Below, one piece after another: positions 898 to 57,747 of a stretch of 64,000 nt of DNA (within the stretch, counting starts at the first letter, position 1; each line of letters begins with the position of its first letter). Source of the stretch: a virus; the IMG/VR virus record IMGVR_UViG_3300000228_000003, positions 1 through 64,000 of that record, one strand, 5' to 3'. The position numbers were made by a program, and so were the translations under genes. Below the pieces are notes generated by a model. It searched no databases. It saw nothing but the letters and a program-made list of their open reading frames with translations, and was not told where the DNA came from.

Positions 898-949
898 TAT
901 ATTATTAAAGTAGAACATCTTATGGTGTTACTAAAAACAAAAGGATTTA
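898..949 (+). promoter_or_regulatory. Candidate early (virion RNAP) promoter TATATTATTAA..TAGAACATC plus TATGGTGTTACTAAAA..AAAGGATTTA leader
   Basis: Same motif at 23015, 30399 and 56997; core also at 6734, 8607 and 62124; resembles the phiKZ early consensus TATATTAC. Confidence 0.6.
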
Positions 950-951
950 AA

Positions 952-2441: not shown

Positions 2442-2873
2442 ATGGGTTTTATATTACCTTGGTTAGCAGATGTGAAGGGTGGTATTATAATCATAATGAC
2501 TATGATTATAATGTCTTGTGTCTTTATTATATATAGTAAAAACGCATCAATAGACGAGCAAAAAGAAATCATTCGTCTTAATGAAAAGGAAATACATAAC
2601 TTAAGACTAGCTAATGCGTTAGAAAAAGCTAATGTTAATACGTTGCAAAGTGCGTTAGATAGACAAAATAGTGCTGTGGCTGATTTAAATATTACTAACC
2701 ATAATAACAAGTTAGCGCTAGAACTATGGCGTAAGAAAGCTATAGACCGAAAGTTTTCTAAAGAAATTAGTGCCGTGCTAACTAACACGAATAGTGATTG
2801 CGATACAATAATGGACACATTAAAACTACTTAATGGTTCAACACCAAGTAACTTTATAAGAGGTGAACAATGA
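2442..2873 (+). CDS. i-spanin (Rz-like)
   Basis: N-terminal TM helix, long coiled coil, C-terminal Cys; overlaps a lipoprotein gene by ATGA; AAGGAG RBS. Confidence 0.75.
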   Translation: MGFILPWLADVKGGIIIIMTMIIMSCVFIIYSKNASIDEQKEIIRLNEKEIHNLRLANALEKANVNTLQSALDRQNSAVADLNITNHNNKLALELWRKKAIDRKFSKEISAVLTNTNSDCDTIMDTLKLLNGSTPSNFIRGEQ

Positions 2874-3106
2874 AAACGATAATATTATTAGCTACATTGC
2901 TTATCGCATTAACTGGTTGTTCTACTAAGCAACCATGCGAACCAATAGTGGTGTATAACACAAAAGATGTTTATATACCAGTGCCTTGCAAAATAGAACA
3001 TCCGGAGTGTAGTTTATCTGGTACTACTAATAAAGCAGTATTAGATAATATGATTAAGTGTATAGCTGACCAACACATGGCTATAGAGTCTTGTAAAAGT
3101 AAGTAA
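2870..3106 (+). CDS. o-spanin (Rz1-like lipoprotein)
   Basis: Signal peptide with lipobox LTG-C; small, Cys/Pro-rich; directly downstream of the i-spanin candidate. Confidence 0.78.
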   Translation: MKTIILLATLLIALTGCSTKQPCEPIVVYNTKDVYIPVPCKIEHPECSLSGTTNKAVLDNMIKCIADQHMAIESCKSK

Positions 3107-3137: not shown

Positions 3138-3992
3138 ATGGCATCAAAAGTAAACTCAGAATTTGCGTATATTACAGTAGTAAATGGACTTACACCTTGG
3201 GAGAGAATAAGAACCATTAGAAACTTTATAGAAGATAGAACTATAGCGCTAACTATAAAAGATACTATCAGTGTAAAAGTAGACGCGGCAAAAGCTGAGT
3301 TAGAGGCTTGGGAGTATGAAATGTCTAGAGATGATATTGGTACTAAAGATAAACTTTTAGCCAAAGCTAAATATTTAGAGGCTTTAGCTAAACGTATGGA
3401 AAATGAGGCTTTTGCAGCACAGCAAAAAGACGGTTATGATAAACTAGACGAGGAGCTAGCCTTTTTGATTAAATATGAAAAAGAACTAGCAAATATATGT
3501 GAAAACACCAGACTACCTGGTAAGACGGATTCCGAGATGTATGAACTTAATAAACCACTAGAAGACTTAATGCGCCATACCAAAGCCGTAGAGGTGGACA
3601 TACTGTCTAAAGTGTTGCAGCTTAGTAGAGATGTTGTTGAGAACGGAATTAAAAACCCGTTATTTTATAACAAAATGAAAAATACGCACGAAGCGATGCA
3701 GCTGCCTGTGCCACAGAAAATACAACTAGGTGACAGTATGGATACTATTGACAGTAAGTTATCTGTATATCATATGTACATTGATAGCAGTGCAGGAGCC
3801 TCTGGTGATAAGTTGTATAACGCCGCACTATCGGCATTCTCGCTTAAGCAAAAAACGCTGATGGCTAATGGTATACAATTAGATAAAATACCAGACACGA
3901 TAGGTGACCATACGTTTAAAAATACTAATATTAACGCTCTAGAGTATGATGCGTCGACTATGAAAAATTTGTTATGTTTAAATGTTGACTAA
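3138..3992 (+). CDS. Coiled-coil-rich hypothetical protein heading the propeller cluster
   Basis: 284 aa; helical charged N-terminal half; motifs MASKVNSEFAY..TPWE and TRLPGKTDSEMYE. Confidence 0.8.
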   Translation: MASKVNSEFAYITVVNGLTPWERIRTIRNFIEDRTIALTIKDTISVKVDAAKAELEAWEYEMSRDDIGTKDKLLAKAKYLEALAKRMENEAFAAQQKDGYDKLDEELAFLIKYEKELANICENTRLPGKTDSEMYELNKPLEDLMRHTKAVEVDILSKVLQLSRDVVENGIKNPLFYNKMKNTHEAMQLPVPQKIQLGDSMDTIDSKLSVYHMYIDSSAGASGDKLYNAALSAFSLKQKTLMANGIQLDKIPDTIGDHTFKNTNINALEYDASTMKNLLCLNVD

Positions 3993-4048
3993 TAAATTTT
4001 AAACGTTAGTTAATAATATCGAGAGTATTTAATAAAAGGAAATAAAAG

Positions 4049-4945
4049 ATGGATAAGCACACACAACTAGAGAACACGACACACAATGCACACAACATAG
4101 GTATATACTATGGCGGAAATGATAATATCGACATATATAACATAGTAACTAGACTAGACGCTAGTGGTGTTAAAGTGGGAGAAGAGACCAGTGCAGGTAC
4201 GGCTAGGTATTTTTTAGCTGGTGCTGGTGTAGGTAACATAGGTATATATCATGGCGGGTATGATGGTAATAATATACATAACTTAGTAACTAGAATAGAT
4301 GCTAGTGGTATTAAAGTGGGAGATGAGACTACTGTTGGTACTACAGCTAGATATCTTTTAGCCGGGGCAGGTGTGGACAACATAGGATTATTTTATGGTG
4401 GAAGTGATACTGACGACACATTTAACTTAGTAACTATACTAGACGCTAATGGTATTAAAGTGGGAGATGAAACTAATGTTGGTACTGAAAGATTATATTT
4501 AGCTGGTGCAGGCATAGGTAACATAGGTATATACTATGGCGGGTTCGATGGTGATACACATAATTTAGTAACTAGAATAGACGCTAGTGGTGTTAAAGTG
4601 GGAGACGAAACTAATGTTGGTACTGCTAGAAACTATTTAGCAGGAGCAGGCATAGGTTGCATGGGCGTGTTTTATAGTGGAAACTATGGTAATGACCGAA
4701 TATTCAACACAGTAACTAGAATAGACGCTAGTGGTGTTAGAGTAGGAGACGAAACTAATGTTGGTACGGCTAGGTATCTTTTAGCTGGGACAAGTGTAGA
4801 TAACATAGGACTATTTTATGGTGGATACGACGGTAATGATAATACACTTGATGTAGTAACTATCATAGACGCTAATGGTACTACAGTAGGGTATGAGACT
4901 AATGTTAGTACTGCTAGAGATAGTTTAGCAGGAGCAGGTATATAA
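4049..4945 (+). CDS. Six-blade Kelch-like beta-propeller repeat protein A
   Basis: Six ~47-aa repeats NIG[IVL][YF]YGG..N.VT[RI][IL]DA.G..VG.ET.VGT[AE]R..LAGAG; Kelch-like R..hydrophobic..GG..D pattern. Confidence 0.85.
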   Translation: MDKHTQLENTTHNAHNIGIYYGGNDNIDIYNIVTRLDASGVKVGEETSAGTARYFLAGAGVGNIGIYHGGYDGNNIHNLVTRIDASGIKVGDETTVGTTARYLLAGAGVDNIGLFYGGSDTDDTFNLVTILDANGIKVGDETNVGTERLYLAGAGIGNIGIYYGGFDGDTHNLVTRIDASGVKVGDETNVGTARNYLAGAGIGCMGVFYSGNYGNDRIFNTVTRIDASGVRVGDETNVGTARYLLAGTSVDNIGLFYGGYDGNDNTLDVVTIIDANGTTVGYETNVSTARDSLAGAGI

Positions 4946-4954
4946 CAATATAAG

Positions 4955-4984
4955 TAGTAGTAGAGGTTATAACCTCTACTACTA
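4955..4984. terminator. 30-bp perfect palindrome, likely terminator hairpin
   Basis: TAGTAGTAGAGGTTA|TAACCTCTACTACTA followed by a T-rich tract. Confidence 0.75.
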
Positions 4985-5024
4985 TTACTTATTTTTATTT
5001 ATAAACGATAATAAGGAGATAAGA

Positions 5025-5477
5025 ATGGCGCGCAATAAGCATAACATATGTATGTTCTATGGCGGATATAATATTAGTATAGGAGCATTCAACACAGTAA
5101 CTAGAATGGACAGTAATGGTGTTAATGTGGAAGATGAAACTAATGTTGGTACTGCTAGATATATTTTAGCAGGAGCAGGTGTAGGTAACATAGGTGTGTA
5201 TTACGGTGGATACGAAACTAATATTGTCATGCACAACAGAGTAACTAGAATAGACAGTGATGGCGCTATGGTGGGAAACGAGACTAATGTTGGTAATACG
5301 GCTAGATATAATTTAGCTGGAGCAAGCGTTAATAACATAGGTATATACTATGGTGGATTTAATAATAGTAATACATTTAACACAGTAACTAGAATAGACG
5401 TTAGTGGTGCTATGGTGGGAAGTGAGACTAATGTTGGTAATACGGCTAGGTATTATTTAGCTGGAGCAGGTATATAA
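5025..5477 (+). CDS. Three-blade (half) Kelch-like propeller protein B
   Basis: Exactly three repeats with the same N-terminal register and LAGAGI* ending as A and D; AAGGAG RBS. Confidence 0.85.
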   Translation: MARNKHNICMFYGGYNISIGAFNTVTRMDSNGVNVEDETNVGTARYILAGAGVGNIGVYYGGYETNIVMHNRVTRIDSDGAMVGNETNVGNTARYNLAGASVNNIGIYYGGFNNSNTFNTVTRIDVSGAMVGSETNVGNTARYYLAGAGI

Positions 5478-5484
5478 TATAAAT

Positions 5485-5508
5485 AGTAGTAGAGATATCT
5501 CTACTACT
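5485..5508. terminator. 24-bp perfect palindrome, likely terminator
   Basis: AGTAGTAGAGAT|ATCTCTACTACT just after the stop of gene B. Confidence 0.7.
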
Positions 5509-5550
5509 TATTACTAAAACATAATAAACACATAATCATATTATAAAATA

Positions 5551-5590
5551 ACATATAGGTAATGGAGGATATCCTCCATTACCTATATGT
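5551..5590. terminator. 40-bp perfect palindrome, likely bidirectional terminator
   Basis: ACATATAGGTAATGGAGGAT|ATCCTCCATTACCTATATGT between convergent genes. Confidence 0.8.
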
Positions 5591-5593
5591 CGT

Positions 5594-6688
5594 TTATTTG
5601 CCTACTATGCTTTTTATATTACTCACACTAGTTACGTATCTATCGTAAATTATAGGTGGTATTCTATTTTTTATTTTAGTATTTTTACTCTCTATTTTCT
5701 TTATTACCATCCTAGTTGCATACACTATACCAGTATTTTTACTTATACCTTTACTACCCATAGTGTTTAACAGTTTGTCTATGTAAAACACACGACTTAA
5801 CCATAATGCCCATTCAGACTGTGTAGTGTAATACTCTTTATCTATACGTAAAGCATCTAGTGCACTAGTATTTAAAAACATAGGTATATTCATAAGTAAC
5901 GCTTCTAACGTTATACTAGTATTATTAAGTTCATCATACTTATCAGTTATACACGTTGTTAACATATGGTCTTGGCTAGATAACGCAAAGATATAATCAT
6001 GTTCTGTTAACAGCTTAACAGGGTTATAATAGTTACCTAAAAATAGATTTATAGTAGCTATATTAAAAATACTAGGTATCAAATTAGGTAGTACTACCTG
6101 TGTTATAAAAACAGCTACATCAACACTACTAGTATCAGATATTATATGCTTATCATACCATAATTTATATTGTAACACTAGATGTACTAAATCTATTTGA
6201 TAAACAGACAGTACTCTATTATCAAGTTCTTTATTACCATCTGGTAACCACATATTGCAATCACCATCTTCAGAATATATACATTTTATAGCAGATGTTG
6301 ATAAACAAGTGTCTATACTATAATAATAATCTATAAAAGTATTTTCTACATGTAAAAATATCTCTGTAGAGTTATAACCATATAAAATATTAGAAGTACT
6401 ATTACCATAGTTAATATCACTGACTATATTAAATGTTTTACTATAGTACGATACAGTGTTCATAGCTGTATTGATAAATTTATCCACACTTATATTAACA
6501 TCTGGCGCAATGTGTTTTATAAGCCTAACTAGATAATGCTGGTTATCAACACGAAACTCTCTATTTTTATAATACTTTTTTATAGTATGTAAATTATCTA
6601 AAGCTATTTTTCTTACATAATCATTATTATGATGTGTGCTTATTATAACGTTATTATTAAGTTGCGTATTTAAAAAGAAACTAAACAT
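5594..6688 (-). CDS. Conserved phiKZ-like hypothetical protein, possibly virion-associated
   Basis: 364 aa; YV...NL..I..YY.....V...H.LVRL motif recalled from phiKZ-like phages (unverified). Confidence 0.6.
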   Translation of the reverse strand: MFSFFLNTQLNNNVIISTHHNNDYVRKIALDNLHTIKKYYKNREFRVDNQHYLVRLIKHIAPDVNISVDKFINTAMNTVSYYSKTFNIVSDINYGNSTSNILYGYNSTEIFLHVENTFIDYYYSIDTCLSTSAIKCIYSEDGDCNMWLPDGNKELDNRVLSVYQIDLVHLVLQYKLWYDKHIISDTSSVDVAVFITQVVLPNLIPSIFNIATINLFLGNYYNPVKLLTEHDYIFALSSQDHMLTTCITDKYDELNNTSITLEALLMNIPMFLNTSALDALRIDKEYYTTQSEWALWLSRVFYIDKLLNTMGSKGISKNTGIVYATRMVIKKIESKNTKIKNRIPPIIYDRYVTSVSNIKSIVGK

Positions 6689-6772
6689 AACTTATATCCT
6701 TAGTGAGTTATTACTTCAGATAATTTTCAACACTATATTATTAAATAGTAAGATAAATTATTTTACTATTAA

Positions 6773-6883
6773 CTTGGAAAGGTTGACAACGTAGTAACTA
6801 GAATAGACGCTAGTGGTGTTAAAGTGGGAGATGAAACTAATGTTGGTACAACTAGACATGCATTAGCAGGTGCAGGTATATAA
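6773..6883 (+). pseudogene. Orphan single C-terminal blade of the propeller family, no start codon
   Basis: Frame between TAA (6770-6772) and TAA (6881-6883) reads LGKVDNVVTRIDASGVKVGDETNVGTTRHALAGAGI*; 6792-6849 matches 4566-4623 at 57/58 nt. Confidence 0.85.
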
Positions 6884-6905
6884 CATAAATAATAAGGAGA
6901 TAAAA

Positions 6906-7769
6906 ATGGCACACAATGTACACAACATAGGTATGTACTATGGTGGAAGCAGCGGTAATAATAAACACAACTTAGTAACTAGAATAGACGCTAGCGGTGT
7001 TAAAGTAGGAGATGAAACCAATGCTGGTACTGCTAGAGCATATTTAGCAGGGACAGGTATAGGTAACGTAGGTGTCTATTATGGTGGAAGCGATAATAAT
7101 GAACTTAACTTAGTAACTATAATAGATAGCGATGGCAGTACGGTTGGAAGTGAGACTGCTACTGGTACAGCTAGGTATTTTTTAGCTGGGGCAGGTGTAG
7201 GTAACATAGGTGTCTATTATGGTGGGTTCGATGGTGATATACTTGATATAGTAACTAGAATAAACGCTAGTGGTACTAAAATAGGAGATGAAATTACTGT
7301 TGGTGCTTATTATAGAGATAGTTTAGCTGGGGCAGGTGTAGGTAACATAGGTATCTATTATGGTGGGTTCGATGGCGATATACTTAATATAGTAACTATA
7401 CTAGATGCTAGTGGGGTTATAGTTGGAAGTGAGGTTACTGTAGGTACCGCTAGGCAATTTTTAGCTGGGGCAGGTATAGGTAACATAGGTATATTTTACG
7501 GCGGTAACGATGATAATGAACACAACAGAGTAACTAGAATAGATGCTAATGGTGTTATGGTTGGAAACGAGACTATTGTTGACACGGCTAGGCAACTTTT
7601 AGCTGGCGCAAGTGTTAATAACATAGGCATATTTTACGGTGGATATGATGGTAGCGGTGGTAGTAATGTACTTAACACAGTAACTAGAATAGACGATAGT
7701 GGTGTTAGAGTAGGAGATGAGACTAGTGTTGGTACTGCTAGAGATGGTTTAGCTGGCGCAGGTATATAA
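6906..7769 (+). CDS. Six-blade Kelch-like beta-propeller repeat protein D
   Basis: Six repeats ending LAGAGI*; start moved to ATG 6906 after AAGGAG. Confidence 0.85.
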   Translation: MAHNVHNIGMYYGGSSGNNKHNLVTRIDASGVKVGDETNAGTARAYLAGTGIGNVGVYYGGSDNNELNLVTIIDSDGSTVGSETATGTARYFLAGAGVGNIGVYYGGFDGDILDIVTRINASGTKIGDEITVGAYYRDSLAGAGVGNIGIYYGGFDGDILNIVTILDASGVIVGSEVTVGTARQFLAGAGIGNIGIFYGGNDDNEHNRVTRIDANGVMVGNETIVDTARQLLAGASVNNIGIFYGGYDGSGGSNVLNTVTRIDDSGVRVGDETSVGTARDGLAGAGI

Positions 7770-7798: not shown

Positions 7799-7879
7799 TA
7801 GGTTATGGTGTTACAAAAAAGTTAACACTATACTATTAATTAGTATAGCGTTAGCTCTTACTAAATTTCTTAAAAAGGA
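7799..7879 (+). promoter_or_regulatory. Leader repeat copy 1, with hairpin CTATACTA-TTAAT-TAGTATAG
   Basis: Near-identical to 8576-8659; ends in the AAGGA RBS. Confidence 0.85.
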
Positions 7880-8502
7880 TGACTATGAGTAAAGTACTTA
7901 ATGTACTTATCACAGGTGATGTAGATTCTAAAATCAGTGCTATGTTGGCTAAATACATTTTCCTAAGAAAACCAAATAACGATAATGGTTTTAACCAGAC
8001 TGAAAACGAGCTTATAGTCAGTGTAACAGACTATAATTTTAGTATAGTAGAAGCTATAGAGTTCGCTATGACTAAAGGTACAGTCGATAATATTACAATA
8101 GCAGGTCTTGGTTTACATACTCAAAACTTAAGCGCTTTTAAAGAGCACATGAACCATAGAACAGGTGTAGTGTTTCAGGATTATAATGGTGACACGTTTA
8201 AAGGGTTAGCTAAGTACTGGCAAGATAAATTTCCAGATGAACACATGCCACCTGTATTTGGATTTTTTATCACCGATATTTATAACCCCATGTATGTGCC
8301 AACCGGTATACCTCTAGACACTATGACTACTCATGTTATTGGTAAAATGTATCACCATAACCGGAATGTTAATTATGCTGAGTTTTTATCAAAAGCTATA
8401 ATTACTTTAGGTAGTGATATAAGACACCTCTCACCAGAACATACTAACTTTACATTAGGCGTAATGTATGGTCTTTGGAATAGCGCGACTTTTAGTAGTT
8501 AA
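7879..8502 (+). CDS. Hypothetical protein, possibly a degenerate DHH-phosphoesterase-like fold
   Basis: N-terminal beta-strand followed by GDVDSKISA resembles the DHH DxDG..SA motif; no clear DHH triad. Confidence 0.35.
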   Translation: MTMSKVLNVLITGDVDSKISAMLAKYIFLRKPNNDNGFNQTENELIVSVTDYNFSIVEAIEFAMTKGTVDNITIAGLGLHTQNLSAFKEHMNHRTGVVFQDYNGDTFKGLAKYWQDKFPDEHMPPVFGFFITDIYNPMYVPTGIPLDTMTTHVIGKMYHHNRNVNYAEFLSKAIITLGSDIRHLSPEHTNFTLGVMYGLWNSATFSS

Positions 8503-8575: not shown

Positions 8576-8659
8576 TAGGTTATGGTGTTACAAAAAAAGT
8601 TAACACTATATTATTAATTAGTATAGAGTCAGCTCTTACTAAATTTCTTAAAAAAAGGA
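8576..8659 (+). promoter_or_regulatory. Leader repeat copy 2, upstream of chimallin; contains TATATTATTAA
   Basis: Near-identical to 7799-7879. Confidence 0.85.
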
Positions 8660-22931: not shown

Positions 22932-23069
22932 TTTTCTTATCTCCAATGTAAGGCTATTCACAATAATTCTAACTATAGAAAATAATAAAACTACTTTCCA
23001 ATTTATTTTTATACTATATTATTAATATAGAACATCTATATGGTGATACTAAAACAAAAAGGATTTACA

Positions 23070-23402
23070 ATGACAACGTTGGAAGAAACAGCTATTGCAG
23101 AAATGCGAAAAGACAGTATGCTAAATCAAGAAGTATCAGATGAGGATATACTGATAGGACTTAAATGGTTATCAAAAGTCTATGAAGCGTATAGTGCAAT
23201 AGAACTTGAAGATGGTAGTTTTGAAGATACCTCTTTCAAAAGTATCGAGGAGGTAGCTGATGCCATTACTATGGTAATAAAAAATTTATATGGCACGAAC
23301 GCAGCTGACAACATTACAGAGTTCCTTAATGAGAACGTTGTAAATGACCAGATGCGCTGCATTTTCTTAGCGGAGATATTAGATAAGTTATCGCCTGTTT
23401 AG
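23070..23402 (+). CDS. 110-aa hypothetical protein, cassette copy 1
   Basis: Paralog of 30456-30788; ATG 23070 after AAGGA; own promoter motif (23015) and hairpin (23406-23431). Confidence 0.8.
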   Translation: MTTLEETAIAEMRKDSMLNQEVSDEDILIGLKWLSKVYEAYSAIELEDGSFEDTSFKSIEEVADAITMVIKNLYGTNAADNITEFLNENVVNDQMRCIFLAEILDKLSPV

Positions 23403-30367: not shown

Positions 30368-30455
30368 ATGCTGCGCTTTTTCCAATTTATTTTAATTTTA
30401 TATTATTAATATAGAACAGCTATACGATGTTACTAAAACAAAAAGGATTTATAAT

Positions 30456-30788
30456 ATGTCAATATTAGAAGAAACAGTTATCGCAGAAATGCGAAAAGAC
30501 AGTATGTTAATTCAAGAGACATCGGACGAGACTATACTGATAGCTCTTAAAGGGCTAAAGAGAGTATATGGTTTGTTCTGTAACATGCAGTTTGATAGGG
30601 GTAGCTTTGACCCTATCTTCTTCGACAGTATCGAGGCGTTATCTGCCGCCACAGTAACAGTGGTAGTAAGTTTATATGGTATGAACGCTTCTGTCGGTAT
30701 TACAGAGTTCCTTAATGAGAACTCTGTAAATGACCAGCCTCGCGGTGTTTTCTTAGCGAGGATACTGGATAAACTACCAGTTGCTTAG
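30456..30788 (+). CDS. 110-aa hypothetical protein, cassette copy 2
   Basis: Paralog of 23070-23402 with matching promoter (30399) and hairpin (30792-30819). Confidence 0.8.
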   Translation: MSILEETVIAEMRKDSMLIQETSDETILIALKGLKRVYGLFCNMQFDRGSFDPIFFDSIEALSAATVTVVVSLYGMNASVGITEFLNENSVNDQPRGVFLARILDKLPVA

Positions 30789-56993: not shown

Positions 56994-57057
56994 GCCTATA
57001 TTACTATAATAGAACATCTTTATGATGTTACTAAACTTTAATATATAAGGGTATATT

Positions 57058-57747
57058 ATGCGCACATTTACGCTAACACCTGTCGCGGTACTTACATTAG
57101 ACTTGTACAACTACTTAGTAGATAGCGATAATGAAAGTTTTATTATGCAGTCATATTGTGTACTTTTTAAGACAGCTGGTGTGGAACATAAATTCTATTA
57201 TACAAATTTAGAACTGTATCAACTACGCGGCTTATTTAGCCTTTACGATGTGAAGGATTACACCTCGAACATAGATACACTAATCAATATCTATCATACT
57301 GAGGAAAAAAGAATACCAGAGTTCTTCTACACTGTTGATAAAGATATTAATTTATGGAAATACGCATTTGACTTACTAGTATACAGCGCATTTAGAAGGT
57401 ATGTGTATAAAAAACTAGAATCCAGTATAAAAAATAATACTATAGAGGATTTTAAAAAGACTCTAATCAGTAATTCTTTCATATTGCCATACAGTGACAT
57501 ATTACAGTATGACCAATATATGTGTTCTTTTGATAACACACTTAAGACATCCTTAACTTATAGCGATTGTTCCACAATAGCATATTGGTTACTAGAAAGT
57601 AAAGAAGTAAGAATTAAGTATATGAAAAAACCAAAAGTATTACCGCATGGAACATCAGTAGATGGTAACAATATAGTTAATGTTAATGGTGATGGTATAT
57701 TTACTAATCACTACTTAATAAAAAATAACTATATAATATACACATAA
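57058..57747 (+). CDS. Hypothetical protein
   Basis: 229 aa downstream of the TATATTAC promoter motif at 56997. Confidence 0.7.
   Translation: MRTFTLTPVAVLTLDLYNYLVDSDNESFIMQSYCVLFKTAGVEHKFYYTNLELYQLRGLFSLYDVKDYTSNIDTLINIYHTEEKRIPEFFYTVDKDINLWKYAFDLLVYSAFRRYVYKKLESSIKNNTIEDFKKTLISNSFILPYSDILQYDQYMCSFDNTLKTSLTYSDCSTIAYWLLESKEVRIKYMKKPKVLPHGTSVDGNNIVNVNGDGIFTNHYLIKNNYIIYT

What the first reader, a model, noticed from the sequence alone, without database searches (positions are those of the whole stretch)
4049..7769. Cluster of highly symmetric Kelch-like propellers with variation focused on the predicted binding face
Seen: 15 blades in three genes (6+3+6) plus one orphan blade share a nearly invariant ~47-aa scaffold, and every gene starts at the NI(G/C)..YGG strand and ends LAGAGI*. 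Variation sits in the loop after GG (YDGNNIH, SDTDDTF, FDGDIL, YETNIVMH, YDGSGGSNVL...) and the two residues after the conserved Arg (YF, YL, LY, NY, DS, AY, QF, QL, DG, HA). Established: in Kelch propellers these loops form the ligand-binding face. Inference: a recombination-fed library of small binders (receptor-binding tips, lectins or anti-defence sponges) built by recent blade amplification. The proteins have no signal peptide and no obvious virion-anchor domain.
Basis: partly seen in the sequence, partly recalled or inferred. Interest (0 to 1): 0.8.

Follow-up and report, generated by a model that had tools for sequence, protein, structure and literature searches.

The report
Phage Kelch propeller genes with partner
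A giant nucleus-forming phage carries three neighbouring genes (six, three and six blades) and one gene remnant for very regular Kelch-type propeller proteins. They belong to a large phage-only family that usually sits at the tips of tail proteins and travels with a helical partner gene, so they are most likely swappable host-binding heads.

Summary
Genes A (4049-4945, 6 blades), B (5025-5477, 3 blades) and D (6906-7769, 6 blades), plus a start-less terminal blade fragment (6785-6883), share a 46-49-residue unit. The AlphaFold2 model of A (pLDDT 94.9) is a six-bladed Kelch propeller.

- **Where variation sits:** it peaks in the loop after GG and in the two residues after the Arg. The opposite-face turn and the outer strand vary too.
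- **Selection:** the loop dN/dS is about 1, so this is relaxed constraint, not shown positive selection.
- **Age of the blades:** dS of about 0.54 between blades argues against "recent" amplification. High symmetry without positional orthology is a property of the whole family.

New points:
- The family is large, found in phages and metagenomes, and absent from Pfam. Members have 3, 4, 6 or more blades.
- Longer members carry the propeller at the C-terminus of tail or tail-fibre proteins.
- The helical gene 3138-3992 has homologues beside the propeller gene in 6 of 8 loci from very different phages.
- Related strains in other metagenomes lack gene A.
- D has an early-type promoter identical to that of chimallin.

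Best reading (0.45): accessory host-binding heads with a dedicated partner. The main rival is early intracellular binders.

This scan has noted a tandem phage Kelch array before on other DNA (e1-5351987).

The parts
3138..3992 (+). 284-aa helical partner gene. Its N-terminal ~140 residues are conserved and its C-terminal part is variable.
   Evidence: Pairwise BLASTP to the genes next to propeller genes: L012 E=2e-20, L006 E=9e-16. HMM hits in L015, L014 and L013 at E 1e-43 to 1e-54. Alignment A3 has 23 invariant columns. No Pfam, PDB or PHROG match.
4049..4945 (+). Propeller gene A: 298 aa, six blades, 15-residue N-terminal extension.
   Evidence: AF2 pLDDT 94.9, pTM 0.91. Foldseek matches designed SAKe6 and KLHL12/17/20/Keap1 Kelch domains at TM about 0.8 and E about 1e-16. 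Missing in related strains of runs X6 and X7.
4953..4986 (+). Hairpin terminator after A (15 pairs, T-rich tail).
   Evidence: No other + strand terminator lies between about 898 and here.
5025..5477 (+). Propeller gene B: 150 aa, three blades, with its own RBS (AAGGAG box), start and family C-terminus.
   Evidence: Complete three-blade relatives exist in other phages: P0031 inside L012, and P0035 inside a 4.7-kb contig. The monomer model has low confidence, pLDDT 59.8.
5485..5508 (.). Palindromic hairpin just after B, related to the one after A.
5551..5590 (.). 18-19-pair bidirectional terminator between convergent genes B and 5594-6688.
5594..6688 (-). Conserved chimallivirus core gene, homologue of phiKZ gp52 ('structural head protein'). 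It is not a propeller and splits the array.
   Evidence: BLASTP E=8e-20 to phiKZ gp52. tblastn hits in 100 jumbo-phage records. phrog_3938 E=9e-39. Gene order gp52-gp53-gp54 (chimallin)-gp55 as in phiKZ.
6729..6748 (+). Early-type promoter motif AACACTATATTATTAA followed by N-TAG. It is the same 16-mer as the one 61 nt upstream of the chimallin gene.
   Evidence: It matches the AR9 early (virion RNA polymerase) consensus core TATATTAT-(6N)-G (PMC5312081). The same subclass precedes the chimallin/nvRNAP operon and a further RNAP beta gene at genome position 95156.
6785..6883 (+). Orphan terminal blade fragment (32 codons plus stop, strands C-D-A) with no start codon. It lies in the leader of D.
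   Evidence: 6792-6850 matches 4566-4624 of blade A4 at 57 of 59 nt. Its stop is followed directly by D's RBS box, which equals B's RBS box.
6906..7769 (+). Propeller gene D: 287 aa from ATG 6906, six blades.
   Evidence: 65% identical to A.

Best explanation
A, B and D are stand-alone ligand-binding heads of a large phage-specific branch of the Kelch propeller superfamily. They work together with the helical protein encoded at 3138-3992.

Proposed mechanism (inferred, not shown):
- Each closed six-bladed ring presents one face built from six B-C loops and six D-A loops, including the pair after the Arg. This face recognises a host-surface structure, glycan or protein.
- B supplies half a ring and must pair with itself or another half to close.
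- The helical partner serves as a dedicated adaptor or assembly factor. It docks the otherwise anchor-less heads onto a tail or fibre component, replacing the covalent N-terminal anchor seen in relatives.
- Several paralogues with different faces give alternative specificities. Whole genes are gained and lost between strains, as is usual for accessory host-range genes.

Shown: the fold, the family, the fusions in relatives, the conserved gene pair and the strain variation. Inferred: virion association, the ligand, B oligomerisation and the partner's role.
For: - **Fold:** AF2 model of A has pLDDT 94.9. Foldseek top hits are Kelch domains at TM about 0.8. The family profile hits the KLHL20 Kelch domain at E=1.6e-9 in register over five blades.
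- **Family size and forms:** 161 cluster representatives at E<=1e-30 and 1272 at <=1e-10. Many 520-890-aa members carry the propeller at the C-terminus.
- **Fusions to tail proteins:** 4 of 10 long members tested have N-terminal tail-protein, tail-fibre or virion-structural domains. P0199 matches phrog_13857 at E=2.5e-67 and also phrog_23008; P0275 matches phrog_2163 and phrog_3904; P0205 and P0215 also have such domains. A distant member carries the Peptidase_S74 fibre chaperone domain.
- **Shared N-terminal domain:** most 320-380-aa members have a 65-aa N-terminal domain. About 190 proteins share it, with other distal domains: Gly_rich_2 at E=1.3e-12, an SBBP propeller, and precomputed GP38 labels. 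Vibrio phage nt-1 has it on an FG-GAP protein.
- **Neighbourhood:** in L012 the order is major head, adaptor, tail fibre (phrog_38058, E=9e-24), three-blade propeller, helical partner.
- **Partner gene:** adjacent in 6 of 8 propeller loci and in 0 of 2 GP38-like loci.
[quoted passage not shown] The Kelch protein CBB_552 is found in the virion (PMC5259590). BFVD look-alikes include 'virion structural proteins' of PhiPA3, Noxifer and Phabio.
- **Strain variation:** contigs of related strains join 3983 to 4868 (X6) or to 4914 (X7, a different study), so they lack gene A.
Against: - A, B and D have no anchor domain.
- D is preceded by an early-type promoter identical to that of chimallin, whereas virion genes of AR9-like phages are late.
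- The genes lie among early or core genes (chimallin, nvRNAP), not among tail genes.
- There is no sequence relation to phiKZ gp298 (hhalign probability 0.2), so that precedent is an analogy of fold only.
- The GP38 label on the N-domain proteins was sub-threshold in my own scan (16 bits against a cut-off of 25), and there is no PDB link.
- Positive selection on the face is not shown.
- No virion data exist for this uncultured phage.
Confidence: 0.45

Rival explanations
1. Intracellular early binders. The bare propellers are made early in infection and bind host cytoplasmic proteins or small molecules, as anti-defence sponges or host take-over factors. The helical partner acts as co-factor. 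The paralogues track variable host targets.
For: - D has the chimallin-type early promoter, TATATTAT-(6N)-G.
- The genes sit next to chimallin and nvRNAP genes.
- There is no anchor domain or signal peptide.
- Gain and loss between strains also fits defence and counter-defence genes.
- In L006 and Vibrio phage nt-1 the relatives lie in accessory, non-tail regions.
Against: - All domain fusions found in the family are to tail, fibre or virion modules, and none to enzymes or regulators.
- L012, and less clearly L015, place the pair within or near virion-structural genes.
- A lies at the end of a terminator-free run that contains a spanin-like pair. That run is headed by a composite promoter with an AR9-late-like AACA-(6N)-T[AG] element.
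- No PADLOC or anti-defence relation was sought. That scan was not run.
Confidence: 0.27
2. Capsid or tail decoration lectins. The propellers stick the virion loosely to biofilm matrix or cell-surface polysaccharide (the samples are soil and biofilm metagenomes) and do not determine the primary receptor.
For: - The variable face is rich in Tyr, Phe and His, as in propeller lectins. This comparison is from general knowledge.
- The phage occurs in biofilm and soil metagenomes.
- The neighbouring gene is a homologue of phiKZ gp52, annotated as a head structural protein.
Against: No sugar-binding motif or lectin family match was found. The top structural matches are protein-binding Kelch domains. 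There is no evidence of capsid association.
Confidence: 0.13
3. Decaying or selfish repeat genes without a current function. The array is a by-product of unequal recombination between blades and is in the process of being lost.
For: An orphan remnant is present, gene A is absent in related strains, and overall dN/dS is high at 0.49.
Against: - All three genes are intact, with RBS, start, family C-terminus and terminators.
- Scaffold columns show strong purifying selection: dN/dS 0.23 with dS about 0.6.
- The family and its partner gene are conserved across very distant phages.
Confidence: 0.07

Closest known systems
Kelch domains of BTB-Kelch substrate adaptors (KLHL12/17/20, Keap1) and the designed symmetric Kelch proteins SAKe6
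   Same: Six four-stranded blades. GG doublet at the end of strand B. Conserved Arg before strand A. Ring closed by the C-terminal strand. TM about 0.8 and profile E=1.6e-9. Internal symmetry is close to that of the designed SAKe proteins, which are the top structural hits.
   Different: No BTB/BACK domains. No Pfam Kelch model matches, even at E<=1. The Kelch Trp is absent. The proteins are phage-encoded, bare or tail-fused. Blade identity is far higher (62%) than in cellular Kelch domains.
phiKZ gp298 and other jumbo-phage Kelch proteins (CBB_550/552/554; PhiPA3, Noxifer and Phabio virion proteins)
   Same: Small Kelch-fold proteins of jumbo phages, encoded away from tail genes among accessory genes. 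gp298 and CBB_552 are virion-associated, and gp298 is a conditional adsorption factor. CBB also has three Kelch genes in one cluster.
   Different: No detectable sequence relation. gp298 matches Pfam NANM and Kelch models weakly, and these proteins do not. No helical partner, half-propeller or high symmetry has been reported for those proteins.
Highly repetitive ('continuously amplified') beta-propellers and oligomeric propellers with identical blades (Pereira & Lupas 2022, PMC9218822; Afanasieva et al. 2019, PMC6805158)
   Same: Blades are more alike within a protein than between homologues, and positional orthology is absent. Blade number varies among close relatives, and disrupted remnants occur. 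The 2022 survey lists Kelch among lineages with such members, and a few viral cases.
   Different: Here this is a phage family with a conserved partner gene and natural complete three- and four-blade genes. dS of about 0.54 shows the blades of this array are not freshly amplified.
T2/S16-type gp38 tail-fibre-tip adhesins and tail-fibre assembly proteins (Tfa)
   Same: Relatives have a short N-terminal domain followed by a distal binding domain. A small gene with a conserved N-terminal part and a variable C-terminal part lies next to the adhesin gene.
   Different: No significant similarity to GP38, Caudo_TAP or any solved structure. The window's proteins lack the N-terminal domain. This is an analogy of architecture only.
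Tandem arrays of RCC1-like propeller genes in Rak2-like jumbo phages, and the eight-gene Kelch array in a T4-like phage noted earlier by this scan
   Same: Rows of paralogous propeller genes in large phages, read as swappable binding modules on the particle (AI notes, unchecked).
   Different: The fold differs (RCC1, seven blades) for the Rak2 arrays. The shared 12-residue tag described there is not seen here. Identity of the family with the earlier Kelch array was not tested.

Membership tests
Kelch-type beta-propeller superfamily | Six (or more) four-stranded antiparallel blades forming a closed toroid | tested here: met
   AF2 model of A has pLDDT 94.9 and pTM 0.91, with about 24 strands in a six-fold pattern. 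Foldseek PDB hits are all six-bladed Kelch domains at TM 0.75-0.81.
Kelch-type beta-propeller superfamily | 44-56-residue repeat with a hydrophobic strand followed by a GG doublet and a conserved Arg before the inner strand | tested here: met
   Units are 46-49 aa. G8 and R42 are invariant, and G7 is present in 14 of 15 blades. The profile aligns GG to GG and R to R against KLHL20 over five blades, E=1.6e-9. The usual Trp of strand D is absent.
Kelch-type beta-propeller superfamily | Match to curated Kelch sequence models (Pfam Kelch_1-6 and related) | tested here: not met
   No Pfam family at E<=1 for A, B or D, nor for ten relatives. Membership therefore rests on fold and on profile-to-PDB similarity: a divergent branch without a model.
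Kelch-type beta-propeller superfamily | Ring closure by a terminal strand completing the first or last blade | tested here: met
   Every gene starts at strand B and ends with strand A (LAGAGI). The model has strands at 18-24 and 291-297. Read from the model's secondary structure, since coordinates could not be inspected.
BTB-Kelch substrate adaptors | N-terminal BTB and BACK domains | tested here: not met
   Only 5-15 residues precede the first blade. No Pfam hit.
Phage receptor-binding or adhesin proteins | Presence in the virion and a role in adsorption | not testable with these tools
   The phage is uncultured and no RNA or proteome data are available. Support is indirect: fusions of relatives to tail proteins, tail-module context in L012, and the phiKZ gp298 analogy.
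Phage receptor-binding or adhesin proteins | An anchor that connects the binding domain to the tail (N-terminal domain or partner) | tested here: inconclusive
   No anchor domain in A, B or D. Relatives have a 65-aa N-domain or tail N-termini.
gp38-type tail-fibre adhesins (Pfam PF05268) | GP38 glycine-rich receptor-binding domain and N-terminal attachment domain | tested here: not met
   No PF05268 hit for A, B or D. Even the N-domain relatives reach only 16 bits against a cut-off of 25. No PDB link.
Highly repetitive (recently amplified or homogenised) propellers | Blades more similar within a protein or lineage than to blades of homologues, and no positional orthology | tested here: met
   Window blades are 62% identical to each other and 47% to blades of other members. 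Family-wide, same-position identity is 45.5% and different-position identity is 45.1%.
Highly repetitive (recently amplified or homogenised) propellers | Recent origin, shown by near-identical nucleotide sequence of blades | tested here: not met
   Nucleotide identity is 65-83% and dS about 0.54. Only the orphan against A4 is near-identical, 57/59 nt, with permutation P=0.06.
Oligomeric propellers (half-ring subunits) | A subunit with fewer blades than the ring assembles into a closed propeller | not testable with these tools
The B monomer model has pLDDT 59.8 with a 9-sequence alignment, which decides nothing. Complete three-blade genes recur in other phages.

The most novel reading that the evidence does not exclude
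The family is a natural 'construction kit' of Kelch blades. Complete three- and four-blade genes (such as B) assemble into closed rings as homo- or hetero-oligomers. The conserved helical partner is a new kind of docking or assembly protein that mounts these anchor-less rings on the particle. A phage could then change its binding face by swapping, deleting or recombining whole genes or half-rings. This would be a natural counterpart of the designed symmetric propellers and a previously undescribed two-gene host-recognition module found across chimalliviruses, T4-like phages and podovirus-like phages.
Probability: 0.2. Interest if true: 0.72.

Novelty: new variant of a known kind. Interest (0 to 1): 0.5.

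Why it matters
Kelch proteins of jumbo phages have long been annotated without a function. One of them, phiKZ gp298, was only recently tied to adsorption on some hosts. This locus links a much larger phage-only Kelch branch, which has no Pfam model and no cultured representative, to tail-protein fusions and to a conserved, unknown partner gene. That gives a concrete, testable two-gene module for accessory host recognition. The natural three-blade genes are also rare natural test cases for how propellers arise from fewer blades. If the rival reading holds instead, the same proteins would be a new class of early, anchor-less binders in nucleus-forming phages.

Tried and rejected
- **The search for related loci** with alignment A1 failed. 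With chimallin or A it found no relative in IMG/VR. Megablast against GenBank phages found nothing.
- **tblastn against GenBank phages:** A hits only Synechococcus phage S-SKS1 weakly. The partner hits nothing.
- **phiKZ gp298 as a sequence relative:** rejected, hhalign probability 0.2.
- **L005's 179-aa gene as partner:** rejected.
- **Word-index search with the partner:** found only itself and one close relative. The ESM Atlas gave no usable hit. PDB and Pfam gave none.
- **GP38-like protein against PDB:** no hit.
- **dN/dS of columns chosen by entropy (4.2):** discarded as circular and replaced by structure-predefined classes.
- **GENECONV-style test:** best tract P=0.06, with no significant tract among intact blades.
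- **B monomer fold:** pLDDT 59.8 from a shallow alignment, not interpretable.
- **Sequencing runs:** no RNA holder listed. Parts of the stretch without contig cover, and the many short 'goes back/skips' joints between blades in run X6, were not interpreted. They may be other paralogues or assembly effects at repeats.

Full report
**1. What is there**

The window is the first 64 kb of a 118,709-bp IMG/VR virus record, estimated 41% complete and about 31% G+C.

It comes from a nucleus-forming jumbo phage:
- 8668-10491 matches the nuclear shell protein family (phrog_4795).
- It is followed by a non-virion RNA polymerase beta gene (phrog_2987).
- The minus-strand gene 5594-6688 is the homologue of phiKZ gp52 (E=8e-20), found in 100 jumbo-phage records.
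- The order gp52, gp53 position, chimallin, RNAP beta is that of phiKZ.

The propeller genes are therefore accessory inserts on both sides of a core gene.

**2. The observation**

| Gene | Coordinates | Length | Blades |
|---|---|---|---|
| A | 4049-4945 | 298 aa | 6 |
| B | 5025-5477 | 150 aa | 3 |
| D | ATG 6906 to 7769 | 287 aa | 6 |

- The repeat units are 46-49 residues. TRF scores run up to 873.
- Each gene starts a few residues before the N-I-G...Y-G-G strand and ends L-A-G-A-G-I.
- A fourth piece, 6785-6883, encodes the last two-thirds of a blade and a stop, but has no start.
- Nine columns are invariant in all 15 blades. Mean blade identity is 62% (protein) and 74% (DNA).

**3. Fold**

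- The AlphaFold2 model of A, built with 38 sequences, has pLDDT 94.9 and pTM 0.91.
- Foldseek against the PDB returns only six-bladed Kelch domains. The designed symmetric SAKe6 proteins and KLHL12/17/20/Keap1 come first, at TM about 0.8 and E about 1e-16.
- A profile of the family hits the KLHL20 Kelch domain at E=1.6e-9, with GG on GG and Arg on Arg.
- No Pfam model matches, even at E<=1. This is a divergent Kelch branch without a curated model.
- In gene order each unit is strand B, B-C loop, strand C, strand D, D-A loop, strand A. The C-terminal LAGAGI strand therefore closes the ring with the N-terminal three strands.

**4. Where the variation is, and what it means**

- Column entropy is highest in the B-C loop (columns 9-20) and in the two residues after the Arg (columns 43, 44). 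By Kelch topology these lie on the face that binds ligands in Keap1 and the KLHL proteins.
- Columns 26, 29 and 30 (C-D turn, opposite face) and 33 and 36 (outer strand and its exit) are also variable.
- Nei-Gojobori estimates with classes fixed in advance from the structure, relative to the global dS of 0.54:

| Class | dN/dS |
|---|---|
| Strands | 0.23 |
| Opposite-face turns | 0.59 |
| B-C loop | 1.03 (bootstrap 0.69-1.40) |
| Two post-Arg columns | 1.65 |

- This shows a strongly constrained scaffold with loops evolving about neutrally. Positive selection is possible at the post-Arg pair, but two columns cannot show it.
- The dS of about 0.54 means most blades are not recent copies.

**5. 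Symmetry is a family trait**

- A search of 5.8 billion proteins gave 58 relatives.
- A profile search of 1.84 billion cluster representatives gave 161 at E<=1e-30 and 1272 at <=1e-10.
- I cut 35 members into blades with an HMM. Blades at the same position in different proteins are 45.5% identical, and blades at different positions 45.1%. Blades within one protein are 37-81% identical (A 64, D 61, B 65).
- So there is no positional orthology anywhere in the family. Each lineage keeps its own blades alike, by repeated amplification or by homogenisation. This phenomenon is described for propellers in general, Kelch included (PMC9218822; PMC6805158).
- Within this genome, A and D blades show no one-to-one correspondence.
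- A permutation test for shared tracts gives only P=0.06 for the orphan against A3/A4, and nothing among intact blades.
- The orphan is 57/59 nt identical to part of blade A4.

**6. Blade number varies**

- Complete genes with three blades occur. Examples are P0031, which is internal to contig L012, and P0035, which is internal to a 4.7-kb contig, along with P0029, P0036 and P0039.
- Genes with four blades also occur (P0003, P0020).
- L005 carries a 657-aa member with at least ten blade hits.
- Giant proteins carry 4-11 propeller stretches.
- B is thus one of several natural half-rings. The monomer model has pLDDT 59.8 with only nine sequences, which decides nothing.

**7. What relatives are attached to**

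- Most 320-380-aa members have a 65-residue N-terminal domain that A, B and D lack.
- About 190 other proteins share that domain with different distal parts: Gly_rich_2 (E=1.3e-12), an SBBP propeller, and many with a precomputed GP38 label that was sub-threshold in my own scan. Vibrio phage nt-1 has it on an FG-GAP protein.
- Of ten longer members with a C-terminal propeller, four have N-terminal tail-protein, tail-fibre or virion-structural domains: P0199 (phrog_13857, E=2.5e-67), P0205, P0275 and P0215.
- A distant member ends in the Peptidase_S74 fibre chaperone domain.
- In L012 the gene order is major head, adaptor, tail fibre, three-blade propeller.

**8. A conserved partner**

- The protein encoded just downstream of the L012 propeller turned out to be homologous to the window's 284-aa helical protein (3138-3992), which lies 56 nt upstream of A (E=2e-20).
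- It is also homologous to the gene overlapping the stop of the propeller gene in the 200-kb T4-like contig L006 (E=9e-16 and 3e-36).
- An HMM finds it next to, or one gene away from, the propeller gene in L013, L014 and L015 as well. That makes 6 of 8 propeller loci. It is absent from both GP38-like loci examined.
- The alignment has a conserved N-terminal 140 residues, with motifs such as W-E-[RK]-[LI]-R and G-K-T-D-x-E-M-Y-E-[LI]-N, and a variable C-terminal part.
- It has no Pfam, PHROG, PDB or Atlas match, and no match in 50,697 GenBank phage records.
- The pair therefore moves together through chimallivirus, T4-like and podovirus-like backgrounds. This is the strongest new functional link. 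It confirms, with data, a note made from memory on this window (e1-5927416).

**9. Local gene organisation**

- A and B are each followed by related hairpins. A large bidirectional terminator separates B from the convergent gp52-like gene.
- The orphan's stop is followed directly by D's ribosome-binding box, which equals B's. The orphan-D junction therefore looks like the A-B junction without the hairpin.
- The orphan lies between an early-type promoter motif (AACACTATATTATTAA at 6729-6744) and D. The same 16-mer lies 61 nt upstream of chimallin.
- The motif core, TATATTAT-(6N)-G, is that of the early promoters of phage AR9 used by the virion RNA polymerase (PMC5312081).
- In this genome such motifs normally lie 35-61 nt before a start codon. 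The orphan is therefore best read as the scar of a fourth propeller gene that lost everything between its ribosome-binding site and its last blade.
- A has no such motif of its own. It ends a terminator-free run that starts at a composite promoter near 898 and includes a spanin-like pair (2442-2873 and the lipoprotein gene 2870-3106).

**10. Variation between strains**

- The stretch occurs in soil and biofilm metagenomes of two named studies, plus three runs that name no study.
- Contigs of two runs are identical to the window.
- In run X6, a contig about 93% identical joins 3983 (nine bases before the stop of the partner gene) through nine other letters to 4868 in the last blade of A, and runs on into B.
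- In run X7, from a different study and year, a contig joins 3983 through 56 letters to 4914.
- Many further blade-to-blade joints in X6 were not interpreted, because repeats can mislead short-read contigs.

**11. Reading**

All fusions and several neighbourhoods of the family point to the distal end of tail proteins, and a dedicated partner gene travels with the propeller. In addition, a Kelch protein of phiKZ (gp298) is a low-abundance virion protein needed for adsorption to some hosts (PMC12676376), and one of phage CBB is in the virion (PMC5259590). Neither of these shows sequence relation to A (for gp298).

I therefore favour accessory host-binding heads that use the helical protein as adaptor or assembly factor (0.45).

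The main rival is early intracellular binders (0.27). It rests on the chimallin-type promoter of D, the lack of an anchor and the genomic position. A lectin-like decoration role (0.13) and decay (0.07) are less likely.

**12. Novelty**

Already known:
- Kelch proteins in jumbo phages.
- Rows of propeller paralogues in large phages.
- Highly repetitive propellers.
- This scan has already noted an eight-gene Kelch array in a T4-like phage on other DNA (e1-5351987; not checked here).

New here:
- The link of this model-less phage family to tail fusions.
- The conserved unknown partner gene.
- Natural three- and four-blade genes in the Kelch lineage.
- The strain-level loss or gain of a whole propeller gene, with a matching scar inside the same array.

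Noticed in passing
window 898, 6734, 8607, 23015, 30399, 62124; genome 76837, 83364, 87069, 90176, 95115, 101817: Promoter-like motif TATATTATT(A/T)A lies 35-61 nt before start codons. The exception is the copy at 6734, which lies 172 nt before D's start with the orphan blade in between. Seven of the twelve copies fit the AR9 early consensus core TATATTAT-(6N)-G, including those before chimallin, an RNAP beta gene and D. The others are fused to a second element.
   Followed up: partly
window 910-950, 23027-23070, 30411-30456, 57009-57058; genome 76638-76680(-), 80338-80366, 83376-83418, 83890-83937, 85298-85342: A conserved leader, ATAGAACA-N7/8-GTGTTACTAAAA-N5-AAGGATTTAAAATG, precedes many small genes. 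[quoted passage not shown]
   Followed up: partly
window 2442-2873 and 2870-3106: An overlapping gene pair: a 143-aa protein with an N-terminal membrane segment, and a 78-aa lipoprotein (signal peptide and L-T-G-C lipobox). It looks like an i-spanin/o-spanin pair, in the same terminator-free run as the partner gene and A.
   Followed up: no
run X6 contig over window 3700-3983 / 4868-5294: In the related strain the junction is in frame by my count: 3983 ends codon 282 of the partner gene, nine letters follow, and 4868 starts codon 274 of A. The partner protein may therefore end in a 25-residue blade fragment (strands D and A). The X7 junction is not in frame.
   Followed up: partly
N-termini of B (5025) and D (6906), and of partner proteins in L006, L015, L012 and L014: B and D begin M-A-[RH]-N-x-H-N-I. 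Partner proteins of other phages begin M-A-R-V-N-H-N-A-x-Y-L-F. This could be a shared short N-terminal tag or strand mimic. The window's own partner lacks it, so it may be chance.
   Followed up: no
L005 6148-11891: A distant relative (helicase 36% identical to this genome's) has its own tandem set of propeller genes of 657, 377 and 362 aa, with different N-terminal extensions. They are followed by an endolysin-like gene (phrog_669), and no helical partner is present.
   Followed up: partly
L016 2140-2703: The gene two places downstream of a six-blade propeller starts with the same 65-aa N-terminal domain but has another, unidentified distal part. Several N-domain proteins may be encoded side by side.
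   Followed up: no
L013 1-4196 and L014 1-3890: In two contigs the propeller gene lies shortly downstream of a roughly 2000-aa protein with DUF4815.
   Followed up: no
window 7808-7853 and 8585-8632: The stretch GTTATGGTGTTACAAAAAA-GTTAACACTATA[CT]TATTAATTAGTATAG occurs before both the 205-aa gene (7885-8502) and chimallin, as another note on this window says. The first copy has C for T inside the promoter core.
   Followed up: no
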